Origin: Patescibacteria group bacterium
Lineage (GTDB): Bacteria; Patescibacteriota; Minisyncoccia; Phycocordibacterales; Phycocordibacteraceae
Reading direction: 5' to 3'
Assembly (NCBI GenBank): GCA_029260935.1
Contig: JAJDCJ010000012.1
Location: 33,315-97,314 of the forward strand
Length of the DNA: 64,000 nucleotides
Below are positions 12,018 to 49,225 of this stretch, in pieces (position 1 is the first letter of the stretch; every line of letters begins with the position of its first letter). The notes beneath the pieces were generated by a model, which ran no database searches, was not told the origin of the DNA, and saw nothing but the letters and a program-made list of their open reading frames with translations. The translations under genes were made by a program, and so were the position numbers.

Positions 12018-12269
12018 TCACAGTGATATTATTTTGAGTAAGTCTAACTTTTTATTACGAGACAACTTCTTGATTTGAGCTTCGCGTTTTTGTGCGGTGC
12101 CACGGCTAGGATGTTTCTCACTGTATACAATTTTCCGAGCGCCGTGTGAGCGAGTATAGTGCCCACCGTCGCCCTGTATATGTTCTTGTAAGCGTCGTGC
12201 TACGTCTGTAGTAATCCCCGTATAAAAAGAGTCGTCAGCGCATTCCAGTATATAGACGTAATAGTGCAT
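12018..12269 (-). CDS. GIY-YIG domain protein
   Basis: YVYILECADDSFYTGITTDVARRLQEH matches the GIY-YIG signature. Confidence 0.75.
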   Translation of the reverse strand: MHYYVYILECADDSFYTGITTDVARRLQEHIQGDGGHYTRSHGARKIVYSEKHPSRGTAQKREAQIKKLSRNKKLDLLKIISL

Positions 12270-12966: not shown

Positions 12967-12995
12967 GACGCGATTTTTACGCTTCTGACTTCTTG
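12967..12995. repeat. 29-bp direct repeat GACGCGATTTTTACGCTTCTGACTTCTTG (copy 1)
   Basis: Exact match to the copy at 13657-13685; the two copies bracket the P-loop kinase gene. Confidence 0.9.
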
Positions 12996-13064: not shown

Positions 13065-13613
13065 CTATAGTCCAGTGTCTTTTTTTATTAACGCTACAGT
13101 AGCTTCAAGCGTAAAATCGTCGGTGATGATTTTCTCGCCAGGAAAGCCGATTATGTCGTTTTCTTTGTACCATCGTGCCATTTGCTCCCCTGTAAACTCA
13201 TCTCGTTTTGGTTTTGTTTGATGGCGTTTTATTGTTTCCTCAAGAGAAATATTGAAGTAGTAATAGAACGTATTATTGGGGTGTTGCTTGTTTAATTTCA
13301 GGAAAAAGTCTTTATAGACATCAAACACAAAATTTCCCTCAAGAATTACATGAAAACCTCTTTCTAAGCAAAACATCACTGTTTGATAGATAAGGTCTGC
13401 GTTGTGTGTCCGGGGACGCCCTCTGCATTCTCGCAAGACTTCTCGACGAAGATAGTCTTGTTCAATAATCGCGATGTTTTCTTCTGACTGTTCGCGCAGC
13501 TTTTTGGCAACAGTACTTTTCCCACTCCCAGAACTGCCACGCAGGATGATAAGTTTGGTATCCATTGCTTTATCATAACAAAGGTTAATGGATGCAAACA
13601 TATCTAGTACCAC
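13065..13613 (-). CDS. P-loop nucleotide/nucleoside kinase-like protein
   Basis: LIILRGSSGSGKSTVAKKL Walker A motif; likely start at the internal MDTKL; size about 165-180 aa. Confidence 0.6.
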   Translation of the reverse strand: MVLDMFASINLCYDKAMDTKLIILRGSSGSGKSTVAKKLREQSEENIAIIEQDYLRREVLRECRGRPRTHNADLIYQTVMFCLERGFHVILEGNFVFDVYKDFFLKLNKQHPNNTFYYYFNISLEETIKRHQTKPKRDEFTGEQMARWYKENDIIGFPGEKIITDDFTLEATVALIKKDTGL

Positions 13614-13656: not shown

Positions 13657-13685
13657 GACGCGATTTTTACGCTTCTGACTTCTTG
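13657..13685. repeat. 29-bp direct repeat (copy 2)
   Basis: Identical to 12967-12995. Confidence 0.9.
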
Positions 13686-13707: not shown

Positions 13708-13761
13708 CGAATTCGAGCTTTTTTAAAATCGAGCGTTTCACTTGTAAAAAACTCGAATTCG
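13708..13761. repeat. long inverted repeat with 21-nt loop
   Basis: Arms CGAATTCGAGCTTTTTT and AAAAAACTCGAATTCG give about 16 bp of pairing. Confidence 0.7.
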
Positions 13762-13770
13762 GCTGGCCGT

Positions 13771-13838
13771 CTCGAGCTAGAACCGCGGTCGGTTAAGCCC
13801 CACAAGGTTATTTTTAACTATTTTATTTTACCAATTCG
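13771..13838. repeat. conserved 3' flank of cassette locus A (about 80% identical to 42631-42700)
   Basis: CTCGAGCTAGAACCGCGGTCGGTTAAGCCCCACAAGGTTATTTTTAACTATT against CTCGGGCTGGAACTGTGGTCGGCTAAGCCCAGTAAGGTTATTTTTAACTATT. Confidence 0.8.
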
Positions 13839-13868
13839 ACGGGTCTCGAGCACCTTAATCTCATATAT

Positions 13869-15176
13869 TCAAAAAGATAAAACACTCAGCATGCTCTCAA
13901 TTGATTCTCGTAAGTCGCTTTCATTAAAATCAGGTCTAGCTGTTTCATCTGCATGATGAATTTTATTTCTTATGGATACAGGAAGAGACTCAATAACAAC
14001 ATCTCCGACTTTACATGTTGAGTGAGAAATAGTCGCAGTAAACTGACTTGCTTTTCTTACGTTCGAATCTCCATCTAATTTCCTTTTTAGTTGACTGTAG
14101 CCCCCTTCTTTTACCTCCAAAGCAGCGAAAAGCTCGATATGTAATAGTTCATCGACGATATCATAAACTTTATAGTTTATTAAATTTAAACTGGGACCGC
14201 CTCCAATCATGTTTTTATAAAACCCAATCTTTTCACCTATCTGCTCCTTATTTCTGTCAATCTTGTAACACACGCTTTTCCCGTCCCTCAATCCTTGCAG
14301 GATGTACGGAGAATGAGTTGCTATCACAAATTGAATATCTAAACCCGTAAACACATCCGTTAGAAACTGAATATATTTCTTCTGCCACTTAGGATGCAAA
14401 CTTGTCTCTGGTTCATCAATTAGTATTAAAGAACCGTCTAAATTTTCTAACTCTTTTAAAAGGTGACCGACTCTATAAATTATTTGTTTCTCTCCTGTGC
14501 TAAATGTACCCAAACCAACTTCGTTACTGTTTTCGTCTGTGAAGACAATCTTCAGTTCACCATCTTGAGGCTTAACAGTTTTGAATGTTTTTGTCCCATT
14601 AAACATTTTTTCAAATGCATTTGTAAATCTTTCAATTTTACGAGTATGTTGCTCTGGAATTTTTCCATGCTCTGCAATGTAGTCATCGATAAAAGTCGCA
14701 TCCTGGGTCTTAAGATTAACTAACAGTTGAGGAATTACCTCAGATAAATCCTCAGACTCTTCTCTTGGGTTCCTTTTCTCATCTATGGTTATTGCGGTTG
14801 CAGAAGTAACTTTAGGATTTTTAAAACCAACAGCAACCCTATCGTAAATAACTTTTAAATCTTTTGGGTGATTATCACTGCTAATTCGACTGTCCTCTAC
14901 ATTGATTTTCATTTCGGTGTACTCTTCGCCATCCAGGAGAGAAAGTACGGCTTTTATTTCATTACTGTCCACGTGTATTAAGTAACCCTCTTCTGTCTTT
15001 CCCAAGCTGTTATAAATCAAATCAAGAATGGACGTCTTTCCATATCCATTCTCACCAGCCAAAAAGAAGAAAGAGGGTATATTCTTTTTATCCTCAGACT
15101 TTTCAAAAAGTGTTAAAACTGAATCCCCTTTGAACGCAGGATGTGAAGTAAATTTGATTTGTTGAAGTTTTTTCAT
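13869..15176 (-). CDS. ABC/SMC-type P-loop ATPase (AAA_21/AAA_15-like), second gene of a two-gene operon
   Basis: Walker A LAGENGYGKTS, signature-like FSTGEKQ, Walker B LILIDEPETSLHP, H-loop ATHSP, and a 120-aa C-terminal extension with no TOPRIM or HNH motif. Confidence 0.75.
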   Translation of the reverse strand: MKKLQQIKFTSHPAFKGDSVLTLFEKSEDKKNIPSFFFLAGENGYGKTSILDLIYNSLGKTEEGYLIHVDSNEIKAVLSLLDGEEYTEMKINVEDSRISSDNHPKDLKVIYDRVAVGFKNPKVTSATAITIDEKRNPREESEDLSEVIPQLLVNLKTQDATFIDDYIAEHGKIPEQHTRKIERFTNAFEKMFNGTKTFKTVKPQDGELKIVFTDENSNEVGLGTFSTGEKQIIYRVGHLLKELENLDGSLILIDEPETSLHPKWQKKYIQFLTDVFTGLDIQFVIATHSPYILQGLRDGKSVCYKIDRNKEQIGEKIGFYKNMIGGGPSLNLINYKVYDIVDELLHIELFAALEVKEGGYSQLKRKLDGDSNVRKASQFTATISHSTCKVGDVVIESLPVSIRNKIHHADETARPDFNESDLRESIESMLSVLSF

Positions 15177-15679
15177 TTTTTATCATCAGTATTCCAAAAT
15201 CTCTCAACCTCTTCCTGTTTCTTTTTCCTTTCTGAATCCAACTCATTCCTAAATGACTGCCCCAATTCATTTGCAAATCTATTTTCAATTTCTTCAACTC
15301 TTAGGTATGCTTCACGACCTTCATTTTGGTGTTCTTTACTGCTTTCGTCATCTTCACTTTCTAATGATAGATAATGTGAAGAATTTTGTCTGCTGAGATT
15401 GTACGCGTAATCTTTCCAATCTTCAGCTAAACGAACCAATTTAGATTGATCATGTTTATGTTTTTCTTTCAATCGAATGTACCAGTCTTTCATTCTTACT
15501 ACTTCTGGTTCATCTTCTTCCAACCCATAGGCAACCTTAGCTGTTGTTCTGTATGAATTAAGCATTAAGTCTGCAAATTCCTCGTATTTTTCTATCTTTT
15601 TTGCAGGTGTCGAATCAAGCACTAGTTTTGCTATGTACCAAATTGCCACGATTATTAAAATTGTATAAATAAAACTCAT
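15173..15679 (-). CDS. membrane-anchored coiled-coil protein, first gene of the operon (start corrected to MSFIYTIL)
   Basis: N-terminal TM helix IYTILIIVAIWYIAKLVL followed by a highly charged E/K/D-rich region; overlaps the ATPase gene by 4 bp (ATGA). Confidence 0.55.
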   Translation of the reverse strand: MSFIYTILIIVAIWYIAKLVLDSTPAKKIEKYEEFADLMLNSYRTTAKVAYGLEEDEPEVVRMKDWYIRLKEKHKHDQSKLVRLAEDWKDYAYNLSRQNSSHYLSLESEDDESSKEHQNEGREAYLRVEEIENRFANELGQSFRNELDSERKKKQEEVERFWNTDDKK

Positions 15680-15780
15680 ATCTTTTATTCTATCGCAACC
15701 ACCATATTTATATAGTAAGTTGCCTGCAACGCTCTTCGAGCGCACGAGATCGCTATATTCCTCGAGCTAGCTCGATTTGG
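15680..15780 (-). promoter_or_regulatory. conserved 5' flank/promoter of cassette locus A (homologous to 43350-43447)
   Basis: Shares TTGCGATAG(A/T)ATAAAA(G/A)AT immediately before the ATG, plus CTCGTGCGCTCGA and GAGCTAGC blocks, with locus B. Confidence 0.7.
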
Positions 15781-15935
15781 CTGGGGGACAGGGACTCGAA
15801 CCCCGATTGATGGCACCAGAAACCATAGTCCTACCGACAAGCGAGTGAGGGTCACAGGAAAGTTTACTTTCATATGACCGAACGAGCGCAGTCGGAAAGC
15901 TTTGCTTACCACTGGACGATCCCCCAAGGCGTTAG
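15781..15935 (-). tRNA. tRNA-Gln(CUG) interrupted in the D-loop by an 81-nt insertion
   Basis: The exons fold into a canonical 74-nt tRNA with U1-A72, G73, D-arm GUCC/GGAC, anticodon loop UUCUGGU and T-loop UUCGAGU. The insert starts AGCAAAGCUU. Confidence 0.6.
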
Positions 15936-20931: not shown

Positions 20932-21022
20932 AACAGACTTTTTTGGGTAAGATACTGAGGTGTTGGGGTACGTAAAACTTTCCTTGGCACTACTCAGACA
21001 AAGTCAGTAGTGTGCCGTTGTA

Positions 21023-21157
21023 AGCAAAGCTTGCACCGGCGGCGTTCTAACAAAATATACTCACGGGCGGTTTTGTTCTTTCAGAAAAATGTAAACGAGC
21101 TTTCATTTTTCTTCTATCACAAAACCACGCGCTTCGCGCAATTTCCGTGAGCAACTT
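21023..21157 (+). mobile_element. about 135-nt inserted element beginning AGCAAAGCTT, flanked by a 9-bp duplication of the tRNA-Thr 5' end
   Basis: GCCGTTGTA occurs at 21014-21022 and again as the first 9 nt of the tRNA at 21158-21166. Confidence 0.5.
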
Positions 21158-21233
21158 GCCGTTGTAGCTCAGCTGGTAGAGCGCATCCATGGTAAGGATG
21201 AGGTCCCCGGTTCAAACCCGGGCAACGGCTCCA
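21158..21233 (+). tRNA. tRNA-Thr(GGU)
   Basis: Cloverleaf with anticodon loop AUGGUAA, T-loop UUCAAAC, encoded CCA. Confidence 0.85.
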
Positions 21234-21878: not shown

Positions 21879-21931
21879 GCCACGTAAAAGTAAATATGGA
21901 CACGCCGTGTCCATATTTACTTTTACGTGGC
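21879..21931. repeat. 53-bp perfect palindrome
   Basis: GCCACGTAAAAGTAAATATGGACACG / CGTGTCCATATTTACTTTTACGTGGC; its 27-bp core recurs at 44164-44196. Confidence 0.9.
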
Positions 21932-21932
21932 T

Positions 21933-22090
21933 CTCCGGCGAAGCCGGACCCAGCTCCGCCGGGCGGTCCGCATATGTAAGCAAAGCTTCCTCTCATCGAT
22001 CACTCGGAAGAGTAACCGCATTCACTCTTCCCTCGCTTCTCTCGATAGTAAAGAAAAACAGTACGCAGGTACTGTTTGTTCTTTCATATG
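21933..22090. repeat. repeat-family copy: GCTCCGCCGGGC motif, GTAAGCAAAGCTT, internal hairpins, ending at the tRNA-Asp 3' end
   Basis: Shares GCTCCGCCGGGC and GTAAGCAAAGC with the 48786-49225 array, and TTTGTTCTTTCA with 21023-21157. Confidence 0.6.
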
Positions 22091-22165
22091 CGCGGCCGAC
22101 CGGACTCGAACCGGCAACCTCCCGCGTGACAGGCGGGTGCTACTAACCAATTGAGCTACGGCCGC
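22091..22165 (-). tRNA. tRNA-Asp(GUC)
   Basis: Anticodon loop CUGUCAC, T-loop UUCGAGU, acceptor GCGGCCG/CGGCCGC. Confidence 0.8.
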
Positions 22166-22850
22166 ATTTCGGATACAGAGTATGTATTGCCTTCGAAAAT
22201 AGCTCGTATTTCCTTGGTAAATACAGTTCTGTATTAGGGCTAGTATGATACATCAGCTTGTAAAGTGCAAGACTATCGCGATGACTAAAAACAAGTTCAA
22301 AGCCTCGCTTCTTGTACTTTTCTAAAACAAATCCCCTATTCAGACCATTTTCTCTAAGAGTACTAAAGAGTGTTAGAAGAAATTTTTGAGATCCTGACGT
22401 GAATCTGCTTGTAAATACCCAACGTTTTTTGTTTCGATCTTTAGCAAAATATTTTTTAAAATGAACGCTGCCGTCGCCATCAAAATATCCCCTGACGAAA
22501 TGATGTAAATATCCTTGAGGGACTTTTGGGAAACAGATTGTTTTGCTTTTGTTTTGAGTGAAACCAAGTTTTATCAAATCAGAGAACCATTCTCTACTTC
22601 CAAACTGCACGCGATACTGTTGCTTCCATTTTTCGTTCCTTTGAGGACGTTCCGAAATTTTCTGAGTTCCTCCGACAATCTTCCGTAATTTTTGAAGCAA
22701 AATTTTGTCTGTAGATGTAAATTCAATATAGTGTCCTCCTCTTTTATTCTCAATCATTGAACCGTCTGCGGCAAAATACCCCAATACATACGCCATGTCT
22801 GATGTCCACGTTTTGAAAAAGTCTTGGTTTAGCTTCTTTTTTATTGGCAC
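22143..22850 (-). CDS. double-motif LAGLIDADG homing-endonuclease-family protein, free-standing, directly 5' of tRNA-Asp
   Basis: Two motifs, VLGYFAADGSM and VRGYFDGDGSV, spaced about 100 aa apart; the 3' end overlaps the tRNA 5' region by about 23 nt. Confidence 0.7.
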   Translation of the reverse strand: MPIKKKLNQDFFKTWTSDMAYVLGYFAADGSMIENKRGGHYIEFTSTDKILLQKLRKIVGGTQKISERPQRNEKWKQQYRVQFGSREWFSDLIKLGFTQNKSKTICFPKVPQGYLHHFVRGYFDGDGSVHFKKYFAKDRNKKRWVFTSRFTSGSQKFLLTLFSTLRENGLNRGFVLEKYKKRGFELVFSHRDSLALYKLMYHTSPNTELYLPRKYELFSKAIHTLYPKCGRSSIG

Positions 22851-24161: not shown

Positions 24162-24401
24162 TTATTTGGTAGGTCCCTTGGTACTGCCATGCCCACGACA
24201 CCCTTCGCATTTTTTAAATAGGTCTTCTACGAACCAACCGCCACGATTTCCGCAATGTTGACACCCTCCACCTTCACACTTCCTACATATATGCCACGAT
24301 TTTCCATACCCAGACCCCTTACATTTTGTACAAATAGTAGGATCAAAATCTTTTTTGTATTGAGTTTCAAACATATGGTGCCGACGGCAGGAATTGGTCA
24401 C
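24162..24401 (-). CDS. small DnaJ-type zinc-finger protein (four CxxCxGxG repeats); likely start MFETQYKK
   Basis: CTKCKGSG, CRKCEGGG, CQHCGNRG, CEGCRGHG; the annotated N-terminus overlaps the tRNA-Met-derived repeat. Confidence 0.55.
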   Translation of the reverse strand: MTNSCRRHHMFETQYKKDFDPTICTKCKGSGYGKSWHICRKCEGGGCQHCGNRGGWFVEDLFKKCEGCRGHGSTKGPTK

Positions 24402-24768
24402 CCGTCGCTAACCATTTTACTTCATAAACTCGTAAAATGCTAATCGCGCTCCACCCCGACTCGGCAACGTGTGCTCCGCCACGGCTTCGCACCCTCTGTC
24501 TTTCAATTCCTTCCGTCTTGTTCAAATTGTAAAAAATACTATGCATGCGCATAGTATTTAACAATTTGTGCCGACGGCAGGAATTGGTCAGGAGTCCATG
24601 AAAATTAGAGTCACTGCCGTTCCTTAATTTTCTATGGCTCACGACCCTGGCTCGGCGACAAGCACTCGTCGTACCTCCTCGTCTTGTATACCGCCTCCGC
24701 CTTTCAATTCCTGTCAATCAGGCACATTGTAAAAAACACCATACTCAAACGTATGATGTTTTACAATG
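24367..24768. repeat. two tandem about-200-bp units, each ending with a copy of the tRNA-Met 3' end (GTGCCGACGGCAGGAATTG)
   Basis: The 19-mer occurs at 24367, 24568 and 24768 (the last is the tRNA itself). The units share CTCGGC, CTTTCAATTCCT and TTGTAAAAAA blocks. Confidence 0.8.
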
Positions 24769-24844
24769 TGTGCCGACGGCAGGAATTGAACCTGCGACCT
24801 TAGCTTTATGAGTGCTACGCTCTAACCAACTGAGCTACGCCGGC
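24769..24844 (-). tRNA. tRNA-Met(CAU) elongator-type (could be the k2C Ile2 species)
   Basis: Acceptor GCCGGCG/CGUCGGC, anticodon loop CUCAUAA, T-loop UUCAAUU. Confidence 0.75.
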
Positions 24845-24896: not shown

Positions 24897-25070
24897 CCGA
24901 CGCAAGCTCCGCTTACGCCGGCAAACTGCTTACGAGGATAGCGCGAAGCGCGTGTTTTTGCGAGTGAAGAAAAACAGAAGCTTGTTTATGTTTTTCTGAG
25001 AGAGCAAAAAAACTCGAAAGCGTATTCTGTCAGAGTGGGCCCGACGCAAGCTCCGCTTACGCCGGCAAAC
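24897..25070. repeat. two copies of a 30-nt acceptor-stem minihelix repeat CCGACGCAAGCTCCGCTTACGCCGGCAAAC
   Basis: Copies at 24897-24926 and 25041-25070. Read on the minus strand they give GCCGGCG-UAAGCGGAGCUUG-CGUCGGC, reproducing the tRNA-Met acceptor stem. Confidence 0.75.
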
Positions 25071-25121
25071 TCTTTCAGTTCTCAAAAAATACCATTTTTT
25101 GATGGAAAAAGAAATAAAAAA

Positions 25122-25450
25122 TGTTGCGGGGCCCAGAATCGAACTGGGGTCTGGAGGTTCTTTTACACTCAATGTTTCCAAAGAGAATGGACTATACCAT
25201 GGTCCACGTGGGACCCTCCCATTATAGTCTCTGAACCTTCCGAGCTATATCAAACGATATGGCTTGGCTTGGCTGCTGATTACCGAATCAACTTGCTTTT
25301 TAAACCATCGCACTCACCCTCTCAGGTCATGCTGTGGTGCAAGAAGCTCTAACGGCTTTCCAGCAATTTAGAGAGTTTTCCACCGTCTGTTGCCAAACGG
25401 GGTCACGTTCTTCACATGAGCCTCCCGAGGTACCTCTCCTCTACCCCGCG
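25122..25450 (-). ncRNA. about 330-nt structured RNA with tRNA-like T-arm and acceptor end; possible tmRNA (ssrA), unconfirmed
   Basis: 3' end CCCAGUUCGAUUCUGGG-CCCCGCA-A-CA pairs with 5' CGCGGGG. The region has no ORF and smpB is present in the window. There is no G3-U70 pair and no classic tag. Confidence 0.35.
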
Positions 25451-25537
25451 CTATCAGCATATGACATTAAGCTCTACTCGTCAACAAAGTAGCGAGATTA
25501 ACGTGACGCGCTCGTATTCTTGAGTCAATAACCACTA

Positions 25538-42236: not shown

Positions 42237-42545
42237 TTATTCCTTGATGCGCGTAACTTTAGAAATCGCATCCACGGGAATTCTTTGTTCGGTATTAAGA
42301 TTTACATAAGTTCTCCAACTGCACCCTTCGCACTCCGTCTGACGATAGACACTGACGATTTTTCCTTTAAATATTTGTTTCGGAATCGTGTCGGTTGGAC
42401 TATCAGGAAGTACTATACGTACCTTTTCATGGATTTTGTACGTTGAGAAGCCCTTTTTAAAGGAATCCAATTGAATAGTTTTAGGATATGTTTCTTGAGA
42501 ACCTGCATCTCCCTCAAACTTTTGTGAAATATCTTCTCCAGCCAT
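42237..42545 (-). CDS. hypothetical protein
   Basis: 102-aa ORF; no recognisable motifs. Confidence 0.35.
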   Translation of the reverse strand: MAGEDISQKFEGDAGSQETYPKTIQLDSFKKGFSTYKIHEKVRIVLPDSPTDTIPKQIFKGKIVSVYRQTECEGCSWRTYVNLNTEQRIPVDAISKVTRIKE

Positions 42546-42630
42546 AATATTTTTGATTAGTTATTACCTGGTTTCAAAGTAGTCTTTCTATTTTGGTCTG
42601 TCAACCGTTTCAGGTAAAAGTGAAAATTGG

Positions 42631-42700
42631 CGGGCTACCTCGGGCTGGAACTGTGGTCGGCTAAGCCCAGTAAGGTTATTTTTAACTATTTCAGTTTATC
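42631..42700. repeat. conserved 3' flank of cassette locus B (homologous to 13771-13838)
   Basis: See the 13771-13838 entry. Confidence 0.8.
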
Positions 42701-42728
42701 AACATTAAGGTCCTCAAGCTCTTTTGTA

Positions 42729-43349
42729 TTATTTGTCTAAATTTGAAAGTTTTTTTAACTTAATACCAGCACTTGACGTTGTGATTTTTTCAATCTTTTG
42801 TAAAAGGATCTTAATTCTATCGACAGTAACCTTTGGAGAGTAGGGGGTATTATACAGATCCATACCATTTCCATACTCAGTTAACCTATCTTTTACATAC
42901 TTATTAGGGTCGGCATTCTCAAACGAACCAGTCACAAATTTTGCTATTGTTTGTACTGTAGTTCTTGCTCGCTCTTCTGTTGTGATCCAAAAATAATTAG
43001 CATTTCTTCTCGCAAAATTCTCTATTAATTCTCCATGATCATAAAAAGAGTTGATGAGCTTTAGTTCATCTTGATCAAAATCGCTTATAAATAAATGTGC
43101 GTATTTTTTCCAATTACCTGACTTAATAACTGATGTTGGTAAGTCGCTCAGATTTCCACTAGAAATTTTGTCGTCGATAATCGCAATTTGTTCTTCAGCG
43201 GTCCTAATTTCTGTGAGCAGAACTCTTGCCGCTTGTATTTTGTTACTCTTCTTTTGCGAGAAATAAGTAAGAATAGCAACACTCCCTGTCAAAATGGTGG
43301 CGAATCCAGCAAATCCATTTGAATTAAGAATTGAAATTAAAATTTCCAT
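42729..43349 (-). CDS. cargo gene of cassette locus B: membrane-anchored protein of unknown function
   Basis: N-terminal TM helix GFAGFATILTGSVAILTYF followed by a 180-aa soluble domain. Its ATG is preceded by TTGCGATAGTATAAAAAT, the same element found upstream of the locus A operon. Confidence 0.55.
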   Translation of the reverse strand: MEILISILNSNGFAGFATILTGSVAILTYFSQKKSNKIQAARVLLTEIRTAEEQIAIIDDKISSGNLSDLPTSVIKSGNWKKYAHLFISDFDQDELKLINSFYDHGELIENFARRNANYFWITTEERARTTVQTIAKFVTGSFENADPNKYVKDRLTEYGNGMDLYNTPYSPKVTVDRIKILLQKIEKITTSSAGIKLKKLSNLDK

Positions 43350-43447
43350 ATTTTTATACTATCGCAATTAATAAATTTGTATAGCGAACTGCCTACAAAC
43401 TGCCTCGAGCGCACGAGGAATATAGCTTCTTCGTGCTAGCTCTAAAC
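43350..43447 (-). promoter_or_regulatory. conserved 5' flank/promoter of cassette locus B
   Basis: Homologous to 15680-15780; the overlapping ORF 43368-43622 is probably spurious. Confidence 0.65.
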
Positions 43448-43468
43448 GGCGGAGACGCAGGGATTCGG
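43448..43468. repeat. partial copy of the tRNA-Ser 3' end (GCGGAGACGCAGGGATTCGG)
   Basis: Matches 43641-43661, the tRNA T-arm and acceptor, at 20 of 21 positions. Confidence 0.75.
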
Positions 43469-43639
43469 TCACCTTTACTAAGTATTTTACTCCTCTCGTT
43501 CGTAAAACACTAAGTGACGCGACCCCGTCGGCTACTACTGCGTATTCTCGCAGGCTTCGCAGTAGCCTCTTTTCGAATCCCTCATCGTCCGTAGAATGTA
43601 CAAGCCAAAATGCTATTCGCATCAGGGCTTACCATTTTA

Positions 43640-43728
43640 TGCGGAGACGGAGGGATTCGAACCCTCGAGGGGTATTACCCCCTGGCACATTAGCAGCGTG
43701 CTGGTTTCAACCACTCACCCACGTCTCC
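43640..43728 (-). tRNA. tRNA-Ser(GCU), class II with long variable arm
   Basis: Acceptor GGAGACG/CGUCUCC, D-arm GGU/ACC with loop GAGUGGUUGAA, anticodon loop CUGCUAA, variable arm CAGGGGGUAAUACCCCUCG, T-loop UUCGAAU. Confidence 0.8.
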
Positions 43729-44085: not shown

Positions 44086-44196
44086 TAGCACAGTACCTAC
44101 GTATATAAATACGTATTTATATACGTAGGTGTTGTAAGAAACAAAAACCCTTTCACACACTAGTTGAAATATGGACACGGCGTGTCCATATTTCAA
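44086..44196. promoter_or_regulatory. divergent intergenic region with two perfect palindromes
   Basis: Palindrome 1 (44086-44119): CCTACGTATATAAATACG/CGTATTTATATACGTAGG. Palindrome 2 (44164-44196): TTGAAATATGGACACG/CGTGTCCATATTTCAA. Both lie between the AbrB-like gene and zwf. Confidence 0.7.
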
Positions 44197-48785: not shown

Positions 48786-49225
48786 TTTGTCGTCACAAGT
48801 AATTTTCCTGACGGAAAATTTTCGCGCGACCAATTTCTCTTATGAGTCAGACGAATTAGAGAAATGGAAGTACTCCTGTGGTGACCCCGGCTCGCCCGGC
48901 TCCGCCGGGCTGCGCCTCTCGGACATGTACGCGAAAACGCCAAGCAGTTGGCTTACGTGTCGTCACAGATAATCCTTCGTCGCCACTCAGGATTTCCGCG
49001 ACCCCGGCTCGTGGTTTTTCCTGCTGGAAAAACATCACTGCGCCTCGGACAAACGCACAAAAACCTGCCGCAGGGCAGGTCTTTGTGTACTTGTCGTCAC
49101 AAGTTGCTAAGTATTTTAGAGCGCTTCGCTTCTAGAATACTAAGCACTCGCGACCCCGGCTCGCCCGGCTCCGCCGGGCTGCGCCTCTCGAACCAGCGCC
49201 GTAAGCAAAGCAGTTTGCTTACTAA
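48786..49225. repeat. tandem array of three composite repeat units (130-170 nt each)
   Basis: Each unit is TGTCGTCACARRT, a unit-specific palindromic hairpin, CGCGACCCCGGCTCG, a second hairpin (CCCGGCTCCGCCGGG in units 1 and 3), CTGCGCCTC(T)CG, then a variable tail. Unit 3 ends with GTAAGCAAAGCAGTTTGCTTAC. Confidence 0.8.

What the first reader, a model, noticed from the sequence alone, without database searches (positions are those of the whole stretch)
42590..43470. Cassette locus B: single TM-anchored 206-aa cargo protein between the shared ends, next to a partial tRNA-Ser 3' copy
The cargo ORF (42729-43349) starts right after the conserved TTGCGATAGTATAAAAAT element. Its 5' flank abuts a 21-nt duplicate of the tRNA-Ser(GCU) 3' end at 43448-43468, so locus B, like locus A, sits next to tRNA-derived sequence; the intact tRNA-Ser lies about 170 bp further on (43640-43728). 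The product has no recognisable domain. The annotated 84-aa ORF 43368-43622 is probably a translation artefact of the conserved flank.
Basis: seen in the sequence. Interest (0 to 1): 0.55.

Follow-up and report, generated by a model that had tools for sequence, protein, structure and literature searches.

The report
Mobile gene cassette beside tRNA-Ser
This is a small one-gene cassette with its own promoter, from a family found so far only in ultra-small (CPR) bacteria that sits just after tRNA genes and forms integron-like rows of swappable genes; the enzyme that moves them and the job of the 206-aa membrane protein are unknown.

Summary
ORF 42729-43349(-) lies between two ends shared with a second locus (13722-15776). 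It starts right after TTGCGATAGTATAAAAAT and abuts an 18/19 copy of the tRNA-Ser(GCU) 3' end.

Related metagenome loci add three points:
- The distal end (L) and proximal end (R) are two halves of one ~240-nt junction. In other Patescibacteria contigs L is followed within 3-6 nt by R, between consecutive co-oriented cassettes. One 3-kb stretch holds four cassettes, and one contig holds an empty cassette.
- R follows a real tRNA exactly as it follows the L core. The last 5-7 nt of the core match the host tRNA: Gln-type CAGCCA, Ser-type CCGC(C)A.
- The same cassette (67% aa cargo, ends 75-78% identical against 56% at third codon positions) sits at tRNA-Ser(GGA) in another genome.

The partial tRNA-Ser copy is best read as the original 3' end, displaced by a separate ~190-nt element that entered the T-loop.

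The cargo belongs to a large uncharacterised family (777 clusters). It is membrane-anchored and all-helical (pLDDT 93), with no fold match, and often sits beside restriction-modification genes.

Best reading: a non-autonomous, att-site-bearing cassette moved in trans. No recombinase was found, so that step is inferred.

The parts
42594..42728 (-). Distal end (L) of cassette B. Read on the - strand after the stop codon it holds a box GAGCTTGAGGACC (42709-42721), an A+T-rich stretch (TTGATAAACTGAAATAGTTAAAAATAACC) and the core.
   Evidence: blastn to 13729-13873. nhmmer E 8e-35. Same element after the cargo homologs in L004 and L001.
42628..42669 (-). L core: TGGGCTTAGCCGACCACAGTTCCAGCCCGAGGTAGCCCGCCA. 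It resembles a tRNA 3' end (GGTTC...CCA), and its last bases CCGCC(A) match the 3' end of tRNA-Ser. In arrays it takes the place a real tRNA 3' end takes before R.
   Evidence: Alignment of 11 cores. Only a weak consensus fold, -2.9 kcal/mol. Not recognised as tRNA by Rfam. Positional equivalence shown.
42729..43349 (-). Cargo gene: 206 aa, with an N-terminal transmembrane helix and an all-helical domain predicted to be cytoplasmic. Uncharacterised family.
43350..43447 (-). Proximal end (R) of cassette B, read on the - strand: linker TTTAGA, GCTAGC, an inverted repeat GCACGAA-N12-CTCGTGC (43411-43436), a third box GCTCGAG (43404-43410), then a promoter-like stretch TATACA-N16-TAGTAT-N6-ATG that includes TTGCGATAGTATAAAAAT (43350-43367).
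   Evidence: (I11).
43449..43467 (-). 19-nt copy (18/19) of the tRNA-Ser(GCU) 3' end. Read as the original 3' end of the tRNA, still attached to cassette B and displaced by the U unit.
43468..43640 (-). U unit: a 173-nt structured spacer homologous to the two units between the tRNA-Met 3'-end copies. It contains an inverted, diverged copy of the tRNA-Ser 3' end (43572-43596). The 84-aa ORF 43368-43622 runs through it.
   Evidence: I19; fold z = -6.9.
43641..43728 (-). Intact tRNA-Ser(GCU).
13722..13860 (-). Distal end (L) of cassette A, with a Gln-type core ending GGCCAGCC.
13869..15679 (-). Cargo of cassette A: a 168-aa membrane-anchored protein (15173-15679) followed by a PtuA/AAA_21-like ATPase (13869-15176).
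15673..15776 (-). Proximal end (R) of cassette A, directly after the ...CCCCCAGCCA 3' end of the tRNA-Gln gene.
15778..15932 (-). tRNA-Gln(CUG)-like gene with a ~73-nt insertion in the D-loop. It is the anchor of cassette A.
   Evidence: Read by eye. Partial Rfam tRNA hit at 15789-15838. Fold. Missed by ARAGORN.

Best explanation
Locus B is one member of a family of small, non-autonomous integrative gene cassettes of Patescibacteria.

Anatomy. Reading away from the tRNA, a cassette consists of:
- a short linker;
- GCTAGC plus a 7-12-7 inverted repeat (GCWCGAG-N12-CTCGTGC) and a third GCTCGAG box;
- a promoter-like stretch whose -10-like hexamer lies 6-7 nt before the ATG, which implies a leaderless mRNA;
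- the cargo;
- another GCNCGAG box and an A+T-rich stretch;
- a ~26-42-nt core that resembles a tRNA 3' end and finishes with the same 5-7 nt as the tRNA it sits behind.

Joined head to tail, the distal and proximal ends form a ~240-nt unit with the layout of an attP site: arm, core, arm.

Proposed mechanism (inferred). A site-specific recombinase supplied in trans recombines this unit with the extreme 3' end of a tRNA gene, or with the core of a cassette already there. The tRNA stays intact, R lies next to the tRNA, and the core lies at the far end. Repeated events build co-oriented arrays.

History at locus B. Cassette B integrated behind tRNA-Ser(GCU). Later a different ~190-nt element (U) integrated into the T-loop. 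It brought a fresh 3' end and pushed the original 3' end, with the cassette attached, 192 nt away.

Cargo. The cargo is an accessory membrane-anchored protein. Its genomic company suggests a role in phage or foreign-DNA defence, but that is unproven.

Shown: the anatomy, the shared ends, the arrays, the empty cassette, the different tRNA hosts and purifying selection on the ends.
Inferred: recombinase-mediated movement, the crossover point, promoter activity and the cargo's function.
For: 1. The ends are shared by unrelated cargo in one genome.

2. L is followed within 3-6 nt by R in L132, L133/L135, L134 and L136. L136 carries four single-gene cassettes in 3 kb, all co-oriented.

3. R follows real tRNAs the way it follows the L core. 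In L133, tRNA-Gln ...GGCAGCCA|AGTCGT|GCTAGTACGAG uses the same linker as the L134 junction ...GGCCAGCCA|AGTCGT|GCTAGCTCGAG. The window tRNA-Gln and the L005 tRNA-Ser(GGA) show the same arrangement.

4. The core 3' end matches the host tRNA in 6 of 6 cases where the tRNA is known (approximate in L001 and L132). Gln-type cores lie at tRNA-Gln in locus A, L133, L001 and L132. Ser-type cores lie at tRNA-Ser in locus B and L004.

5. L134 holds an empty cassette (core, linker, box, L remainder, core) and terminal cores that run straight into host sequence.

6. The same cassette sits at tRNA-Ser(GGA) in GCA_022563755. R is 78% and L 75% identical, against 56% at third codon positions of the cargo, so the ends are under selection.

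7. GCNCGAG boxes cluster in the ends: 7 of the window's 27 matches fall in about 500 nt.

8. The inverted repeat is conserved as sequence, not as structure. The inner three pairs are unpaired in 3, 4 and 6 of 9 sequences, and covariation is no better than shuffles (370 of 500 shuffles reach it). This fits a protein-binding DNA site.

9. Cargo elsewhere is typical accessory or defence material: GmrSD_C, PtuA-like ATPase, NucS-like nuclease, GNAT, HAD, a thioredoxin-fold protein and membrane proteins.

10. In L141, which keeps the pil-comF...tRNA-Ser(GCU) synteny, the slot behind the tRNA holds an unrelated gene.
Against: - No recombinase was found in the 64-kb window or in any fetched related locus. 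This rests on motif scans only and on the Pfam labels of called genes.
- No autonomous relative, circular junction or precise empty site at tRNA-Ser was observed.
- No close relative of the genome exists in the collections: the best ComF match is 53% identical.
- The core is not recognised as tRNA by Rfam, and its identity to the tRNA is limited to 5-7 terminal bases plus the GGTTC motif.
- Only about a dozen cassettes from about six organisms were seen.
- The promoter is below the scan tool's threshold.
- Most homologs of the cargo lack these ends, so the cargo family spreads by other routes as well.
Confidence: 0.6

Rival explanations
1. Fossil islands. The cassettes are decayed leftovers of larger integrase-carrying islands that once integrated in tandem at tRNA genes, as in Prochlorococcus islands built from tycheposon remnants. 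L and R are the surviving attR and attL arms, and nothing moves any more.
For: There is tRNA adjacency, tandem arrangement and tRNA-like fragments, but no recombinase anywhere. The tycheposon paper describes partial tRNAs and degenerate elements scattered through islands.
Against: The ends are better conserved than synonymous sites across genomes. They are regular in four consecutive single-gene cassettes. An empty cassette and recombinant junction variants exist. Random decay would not leave uniformly minimal units of promoter, one gene and ends.
Confidence: 0.2
2. Exchange by homologous recombination. The conserved ends serve as portable homology arms, and cassettes are swapped after natural DNA uptake, like the minimal mobile elements of Neisseria (comparison from my own knowledge). 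No dedicated recombinase is needed.
For: No recombinase was found. The window encodes type IV pilus and ComF-type competence functions next to the locus.
Against: The ends are only 59-78% identical between cassettes, which is poor substrate for homologous recombination. Junction variants break at short GCNCGAG boxes. Homologous exchange does not explain why the core end matches the particular tRNA, nor how the same cassette reached two different tRNA-Ser genes.
Confidence: 0.12
3. RNA-level signals. L is a tRNA-like 3' processing or stabilising element for the cargo mRNA, and R is an operator plus promoter. The units are conserved because they regulate expression, and they spread by ordinary duplication.
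For: L ends in ...CCA and resembles a tRNA 3' end. R carries a promoter-like stretch directly before the ATG in most cassettes. The tRNA-Ser/U region folds very stably, z = -6.9.
Against: The consensus fold of the core is weak, -2.9 kcal/mol with little covariation. The inverted repeat shows no covariation. Rfam sees no tRNA-like element in L. A regulatory role does not explain the arrays, the empty cassette or the presence of the ends in distant genomes with unrelated cargo.
Confidence: 0.06
4. A classical integron cassette array without an integrase (CALIN).
For: Arrays of co-oriented single-gene cassettes are separated by a repeated site.
Against: There is no IntI. The boundaries lack the GTTRRRY / RYYYAAC core of attC (read). 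The cassettes carry their own promoter-like stretch. The array is anchored on a tRNA gene rather than on attI.
Confidence: 0.02

Closest known systems
Integron gene cassettes and cassette arrays
   Same: Small, mostly single-gene units, all in one orientation, separated by a repeated site. The cargo is diverse accessory and defence material, and empty cassettes occur.
   Different: No IntI and no attC signature. Each cassette has its own promoter-like stretch abutting the ATG. The array starts at the 3' end of a tRNA gene. The repeated site is an imitation of a tRNA 3' end plus a 7-12-7 inverted repeat.
Tycheposons and other tRNA-targeting integrative islands (bioRxiv 10.1101/2020.12.28.424599)
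   Same: Integration at tRNA genes, tandem accumulation with newer elements next to the tRNA, tRNA fragments inside the island, cargo as plug-in modules, and a host with a tiny streamlined genome.
   Different: Tycheposons carry their own tyrosine recombinase and often replication genes, span several kb, and are flanked by true partial tRNAs. Here the units are 0.65-4.4 kb (single-gene ones 0.65-0.9 kb) with no recombinase, and identity to the tRNA is only 5-7 terminal bases.
Cis-mobilizable elements (CIMEs) and accretion at att sites (reviewed in PMC5704250; ICEberg 2.0, PMC6323972; both only listed and not read, so the description is from my own knowledge)
   Same: Bounded by att sites, lacking any recombination or transfer gene, thought to depend on an autonomous relative, and arranged in tandem.
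   Different: CIMEs are known from Firmicutes ICE families and are defined relative to an identified ICE. No autonomous partner is known here, and the elements are far smaller.
ssrA-specific genomic islands of Dehalococcoides (PMC3146451; only listed and not read, so the description is from my own knowledge)
   Same: Tandem islands behind a small RNA gene, marked by repeated copies of its 3' end.
   Different: Those islands carry serine recombinases and use ~20-nt direct repeats. That pattern resembles the U units here more than the cassettes.
pdif modules of Acinetobacter plasmids
   Same: Gene modules with no recombinase of their own, bounded by short inverted-repeat sites used by a host recombinase.
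   Different: pdif sites are 11-6-11 XerC/XerD sites in alternating orientation on plasmids. Here there is one 7-12-7 repeat per junction, the locus is chromosomal and it is linked to a tRNA.
DUF4760 / putative AbiC proteins (for the cargo)
   Same: About 200 aa with an N-terminal membrane anchor. 3 of 55 family members hit DUF4760 and 1 hits putAbiC at E around 1e-3. UniRef labels P0004 'DUF4760 domain-containing protein'.
   Different: The window protein and P0004 itself do not reach any Pfam threshold.

Membership tests
Integron cassette array | IntI-type tyrosine recombinase next to the array | tested here: not met
   No tyrosine or serine recombinase motif in the window or in 15 related loci. 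No such Pfam label on called genes. Motif scans are crude, and only the flanks that were fetched could be examined.
Integron cassette array | attC sites with RYYYAAC ... GTTRRRY cores at cassette boundaries | tested here: not met
   The boundaries read ...CCGCCG|TTTAGAGCTAGC...CCGCA|TCTTAGAGC and ...CAGCCA|AATCGAGC. None contains GTTRRRY. IntegronFinder's attC model could not be run.
Integron cassette array | Co-oriented, mostly single-gene cassettes separated by a repeated recombination site | tested here: met
   L136 has four cassettes in 3 kb. L132, L133 and L134 have L+R junctions.
Integron cassette array | Promoterless cassettes expressed from a common promoter | tested here: not met
   By reading, a -10-like hexamer TAnnAT lies 6-7 nt before the ATG in 8 of 10 cassettes. 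Promoter activity itself was not tested.
tRNA-targeting integrative element (tycheposon-like or P4-like island) | Inserted at the 3' end of a tRNA gene, leaving the tRNA intact | tested here: met
   Seen at the window tRNA-Gln and tRNA-Ser, L005 tRNA-Ser(GGA), and L133, L132 and L001 tRNA-Gln(CUG).
tRNA-targeting integrative element (tycheposon-like or P4-like island) | Flanked by a direct repeat of the tRNA 3' part (attL/attR) | tested here: inconclusive
   The distal core copies the GGTTC...CCA layout, but only its last 5-7 nt equal the tRNA. Rfam does not call it tRNA. The true 19-nt repeat at locus B belongs to the U unit.
tRNA-targeting integrative element (tycheposon-like or P4-like island) | Element-encoded integrase | tested here: not met
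   Cassette B holds one gene and cassette A two. Neither is a recombinase. None of the cassettes in L132-L136 carries one.
Cis-mobilizable element (CIME) | Bounded by att sites but without recombination or transfer genes | tested here: met
   Conserved L and R ends and no such genes.
Cis-mobilizable element (CIME) | att sites shared with an identified autonomous element that supplies the recombinase | not testable with these tools
   No autonomous relative turned up in one strict metagenome scan or four viral scans.
Xer-dependent modules (dif/pdif) | Pairs of 11-6-11 XerC/XerD binding sites bounding the module | tested here: inconclusive
   The only inverted repeat is 7-12-7 (readable as 10-6-10 in L004), once per junction. 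It does not resemble the dif consensus as I recall it. The dif site of these bacteria is unknown.
DUF4760 / putAbiC (cargo protein) | Match to the Pfam model above its gathering score | tested here: not met
   No hit for the window protein. 3 of 55 and 1 of 55 relatives hit at E 0.004 and 0.0009. A UniRef name is the only positive label.

The most novel reading that the evidence does not exclude
Patescibacteria possess their own cassette-capture platform, functionally like an integron but built differently. tRNA genes (Gln-CUG, Ser) act as the landing site. The recombination site is an imitation of the tRNA 3' end plus a 7-12-7 inverted repeat with GCNCGAG boxes. Every cassette brings a leaderless promoter. 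A so far unidentified recombinase, encoded elsewhere in the genome or by a helper element, shuffles defence and accessory genes among these tiny genomes.
Probability: 0.3. Interest if true: 0.8.

Novelty: new variant of a known kind. Interest (0 to 1): 0.62.

Why it matters
CPR/Patescibacteria have very small genomes, few recognised mobile elements and no cultured genetics, so how they acquire accessory and defence genes is poorly understood.

A compact, sequence-defined cassette system anchored on tRNA genes would offer three things:
- A searchable signature for their flexible gene pool.
- A route to finding the recombinase behind it.
- A ready-made design for gene delivery into these organisms: the att-like unit, a leaderless promoter and a one-gene payload.

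It also flags a family of 777 clusters of membrane-anchored proteins as candidates for defence-island functions.

Tried and rejected
Searches that led nowhere:
- Four scans of viral contigs with junction and core patterns found nothing.
- tblastn of the cargo against cultured phages and plasmids found nothing.
- Pfam, PHROGs and PADLOC on 55 close and 47 distant family members gave only scattered weak hits.
- Regex scans for tyrosine and serine recombinase motifs in the window and 15 loci were negative.
- Literature searches for CPR cassettes, integrons, genomic islands and DUF4760 found nothing that describes this.

Presence/absence test:
- The adjacent 102-aa gene is an ORFan.
- The only other contig is the same strain and breaks inside the cargo.
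- The nearest ComF relatives are 48-53% identical.

Readings considered and rejected:
- An RNA hairpin for the inverted repeat, because there is no covariation.
- A folded tRNA-like RNA for the core, because the consensus fold is weak and Rfam gives no hit.
- A cassette-made origin for the 19-nt tRNA copy, because the U-unit alignment explains it better.
Full report
**What is at the locus**

The window comes from a Patescibacteria (CPR) genome. Homologs of its genes are named Wolfebacteria, Nomurabacteria, Gribaldobacteria or 'Patescibacteria group'.

On the minus strand, reading away from tRNA-Ser(GCU) (43641-43728), the order is:
- a 173-nt structured spacer (43468-43640);
- a 19-nt copy of the tRNA 3' end (43449-43467, 18/19);
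- a ~100-nt conserved stretch (R, 43350-43447);
- the 206-aa ORF (42729-43349);
- a ~135-nt conserved stretch (L, 42594-42728).

Both conserved stretches recur around locus A. There, 15654-15798 and 13729-13873 match at 69-70% identity with E about 1e-15. Locus A carries unrelated cargo: a membrane-anchored 168-aa protein and a PtuA/AAA_21-like ATPase. R of locus A directly follows a tRNA-Gln(CUG)-like gene.

**The two ends are halves of one junction**

One strict pattern scan of metagenome contigs, using the inverted repeat of R, gave five Patescibacteria loci plus one chance hit. In all of them the L core is followed by R within 3-6 nt. An example is ...GGTTCTAGCTCGAGGAGGCCAGCCA|ACAAGA|GCTAGCACGAGG....

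Profile searches showed arrays:
- L136 has four consecutive single-gene cassettes in 3 kb: R, ORF, L+R, ORF, L+R, ORF, R, ORF, L. All are co-oriented.
- L133 starts at tRNA-Gln(CUG) and then runs R, five genes, L+R and more genes.
- L132 starts at tRNA-Gln(CUG) and runs a GNAT gene, L+R and a thioredoxin-fold gene.
- L134 has a GmrSD_C restriction gene, L+R, a membrane protein, a short L, an empty cassette (core, AGTCGT, GTGCCCGAGACGCC, remainder of L, core) and then host DNA.

R follows a genuine tRNA exactly as it follows an L core, down to the linker. In L133, tRNA-Gln ...GGCAGCCA|AGTCGT|GCTAG compares with the L134 junction ...GGCCAGCCA|AGTCGT|GCTAG.

**Anatomy of the junction**

- *The L core.* L begins with a GCNCGAG-type box and continues through an A+T-rich stretch to a core such as GGGCTT..CCGACCACGGTTCYAGCYCGAG..GGCCAGCCA. 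The core has the length and landmarks of a tRNA 3' end (GGTTC ... CCA). It folds weakly, at -2.9 kcal/mol with little covariation, and Rfam does not score it as tRNA.
- *Match to the host tRNA.* The last bases of the core match the tRNA in front of the array. CAGCC(A) cores lie at tRNA-Gln in locus A, L133, L001 and L132 (approximate in L001 and L132). CCGC(C)A cores lie at tRNA-Ser in locus B and L004. That is 6 of 6 cases with a known tRNA. The linker varies with the core type as well.
- *The R inverted repeat.* R holds GCTAGC, then the inverted repeat GCWCGAG-N12-CTCGTGC, then a third GCTCGAG box. On nine copies the outer seven pairs are almost invariant. The inner three pairs are unpaired in 3, 4 and 6 of 9 copies, and covariation does not exceed shuffles. 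This is sequence conservation, as expected of a protein-binding DNA site, rather than an RNA hairpin.
- *Box clustering and junction variants.* GCNCGAG boxes cluster in the ends: 7 of the window's 27 matches fall there. Junction variants lack one arm or the other, as if recombination had occurred between boxes.
- *Promoter.* By reading, a -10-like hexamer (TAGTAT, TAGAAT, TATAAT, TACAAT and similar) sits 6-7 nt before the ATG in 8 of 10 cassettes, with no Shine-Dalgarno sequence. This suggests leaderless transcripts. The generic promoter scan did not call it.

**Evidence that the unit moves, or has moved**

- The closest homolog of the cargo (P0002, 67% aa) lies in GCA_022563755 between the same ends, directly behind tRNA-Ser(GGA), with different neighbours.
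- Between the two cassettes R is 78% and L 75% identical. Third codon positions of the cargo are 56% identical. The ends are therefore under selection.
- In L141, a distant relative (ComF 50%) that keeps the pil operon-comF...tRNA-Ser(GCU) order, the slot behind the tRNA holds an unrelated 415-aa gene and no L or R.
- No closer relative exists in the collections. The adjacent 102-aa gene is an ORFan. The one other contig is the same strain. A precise empty site therefore could not be shown.

**The partial tRNA-Ser copy**

The spacer between the copy and the tRNA is homologous to two units at tRNA-Met. Each of those is bounded by exact 19-20-nt copies of the tRNA-Met 3' end (D3). All three units start in the T-loop (GGTTCG/A against GGTGAC). 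All three carry an inverted, diverged copy of their own tRNA's 3' end. The tRNA-Ser region folds very stably, z = -6.9.

The simplest reading is a second kind of mini-element (U) that integrates in the T-loop, supplies a new 3' end and displaces the old one. At locus B the displaced end is still joined to R through the linker TTTAGA, just as tRNA-Ser(GGA) is joined to R in L004 (TCTTAGA). Cassette B was therefore there first, directly behind the tRNA.

The 84-aa ORF runs through U, the tRNA copy and the inverted repeat, and it has no family hit. It is probably an artefact.

**The cargo**

- The family has 73 close relatives, all from Patescibacteria where a source names the organism. A profile search finds 777 clusters at 50% identity, nearly all about 200 aa long.
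- The AlphaFold model is confident (pLDDT 93.4, pTM 0.77). It is all-helical, with a transmembrane helix continuing into a long helix. Lys and Arg residues after the helix suggest that the domain faces the cytoplasm; this is an inference.
- Conserved motifs include QAARVLLTEIRxAE, DFDQDE, FFWITTEER and TSSxGxKLKK.
- There is no significant fold match in PDB or BFVD and no Pfam, PHROG or PADLOC family. Only a few marginal DUF4760 and putAbiC hits and a UniRef 'DUF4760' label exist.
- Four of the nine other contexts examined (ten counting the window) are beside restriction-modification or other defence genes. These are MvaI/BcnI plus methylase; Dam methylase-X-DUF6996/6997-methylase; a Gribaldobacteria island with PemK, EcoRI methylase, GmrSD-HNH, NYN and AbiEii; and Bsp6I plus methylase.
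- Other contexts are between housekeeping genes. Apart from L004/L005 and L001, the contexts fetched with DNA lack L and R.
- A defence-related role is a reasonable guess from association. I put it at about 0.3.

**Mechanism and comparison**

L plus R has the size and layout of an attP site: arm with boxes and an A+T-rich stretch, core, then arm with boxes. The integrated forms look like attL (tRNA + R) and attR (L + core). The crossover inferred from terminal cassettes lies at the last bases of the tRNA or core.

I therefore favour site-specific recombination by an enzyme supplied in trans, with confidence 0.6. No recombinase was found. This is the main weakness.

The system works like an integron array, and like tandem tRNA islands (tycheposons) or CIMEs. 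It fails defining features of each: no IntI or attC, no element-borne integrase and no identified autonomous partner. I found no description of it in the searchable literature.

I rate it a new variant of a known kind. There is a real chance, about 0.3, that it is a distinct CPR cassette-capture platform.

Noticed in passing
window 15778-15932 (-): The tRNA-Gln(CUG)-like gene that anchors cassette A has a ~73-nt insertion in its D-loop, after GTCCAGTGGTAA. ARAGORN and the Rfam gathering threshold miss it. The insert begins GTAAGCAAAGCTT, a motif also found at 21012-21032 and 21976-22007. Whether the tRNA is functional, spliced or dead is unknown.
   Followed up: partly
window 43449-43665, 24371-24586, 24568-24794; partial at 49096-49165: A family of 170-182-nt structured 'U' units is bounded by 19-20-nt copies of the 3' end of tRNA-Ser or tRNA-Met (two in tandem), with a fragment near tRNA-Ile. 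Each unit carries an inverted, diverged copy of its own tRNA's 3' end. They look like miniature elements that integrate in the T-loop.
   Followed up: partly
window 24914-24927, 25058-25071 and 21009-21166; L141 9010-9085: A mirror-image pattern occurs on the 5' side. Two partial copies of the tRNA-Met 5' end lie 144 nt apart, and the unit is homologous (inverted) to the region upstream of tRNA-Thr. In L141 a partial tRNA-Ser 5' copy with a GCAAACTGCTTTGC hairpin lies upstream of tRNA-Ser(GCU).
   Followed up: no
window 25168-25500 (-), with 25120-25150: A group I intron (Rfam, 55 bits) lies next to what reads as a tRNA 3' half. This suggests an intron-containing tRNA gene that ARAGORN does not report.
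   Followed up: no
window 22143-22850 (-): A LAGLIDADG homing-endonuclease ORF (Pfam E 1e-13) abuts or overlaps tRNA-Asp (22090-22165).
   Followed up: partly
window 12018-12269 (-); L001 4519-4818: A small GIY-YIG nuclease gene lies 1.5 kb beyond cassette A. Another lies between tRNA-Gln and the cargo homolog in the Wolfebacteria locus. The recurrence near these cassettes may be coincidence.
   Followed up: no
window 12967-12995 and 13657-13685: Exact 29-nt direct repeats flank the AAA_33/zeta-toxin-like kinase gene (13065-13613). The distal repeat ends a truncated P-loop kinase fragment, as if one kinase gene had been inserted into another.
   Followed up: no
window 42237-42545 (-): The 102-aa ORF just beyond the distal end of cassette B has no homolog in 5.8 billion proteins other than itself. 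It may be further island material or not a gene.
   Followed up: partly
window 21892-21918 and 44167-44193: The same 27-nt palindrome (AAATATGGACACGSCGTGTCCATATTT) occurs twice. One copy is about 440 nt on the other side of tRNA-Ser, and the other is downstream of tRNA-Asp.
   Followed up: no
L136 1000-1060 (- strand): A 22-nt tRNA 3'-end-like fragment (CGAATCCTGAACACGCCGCACC) sits between two tandem copies of TTAGWGCTAGCACGAG. This is another recombinant junction form.
   Followed up: no
L139 1-12600: A homolog of the cargo sits in a dense one-strand defence island of a Gribaldobacteria genome: Fic, MazG, SocA-like, PemK, EcoRI methylase, GmrSD-HNH, NYN and AbiEii. The island has no L or R ends and no tRNA.
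   Followed up: partly
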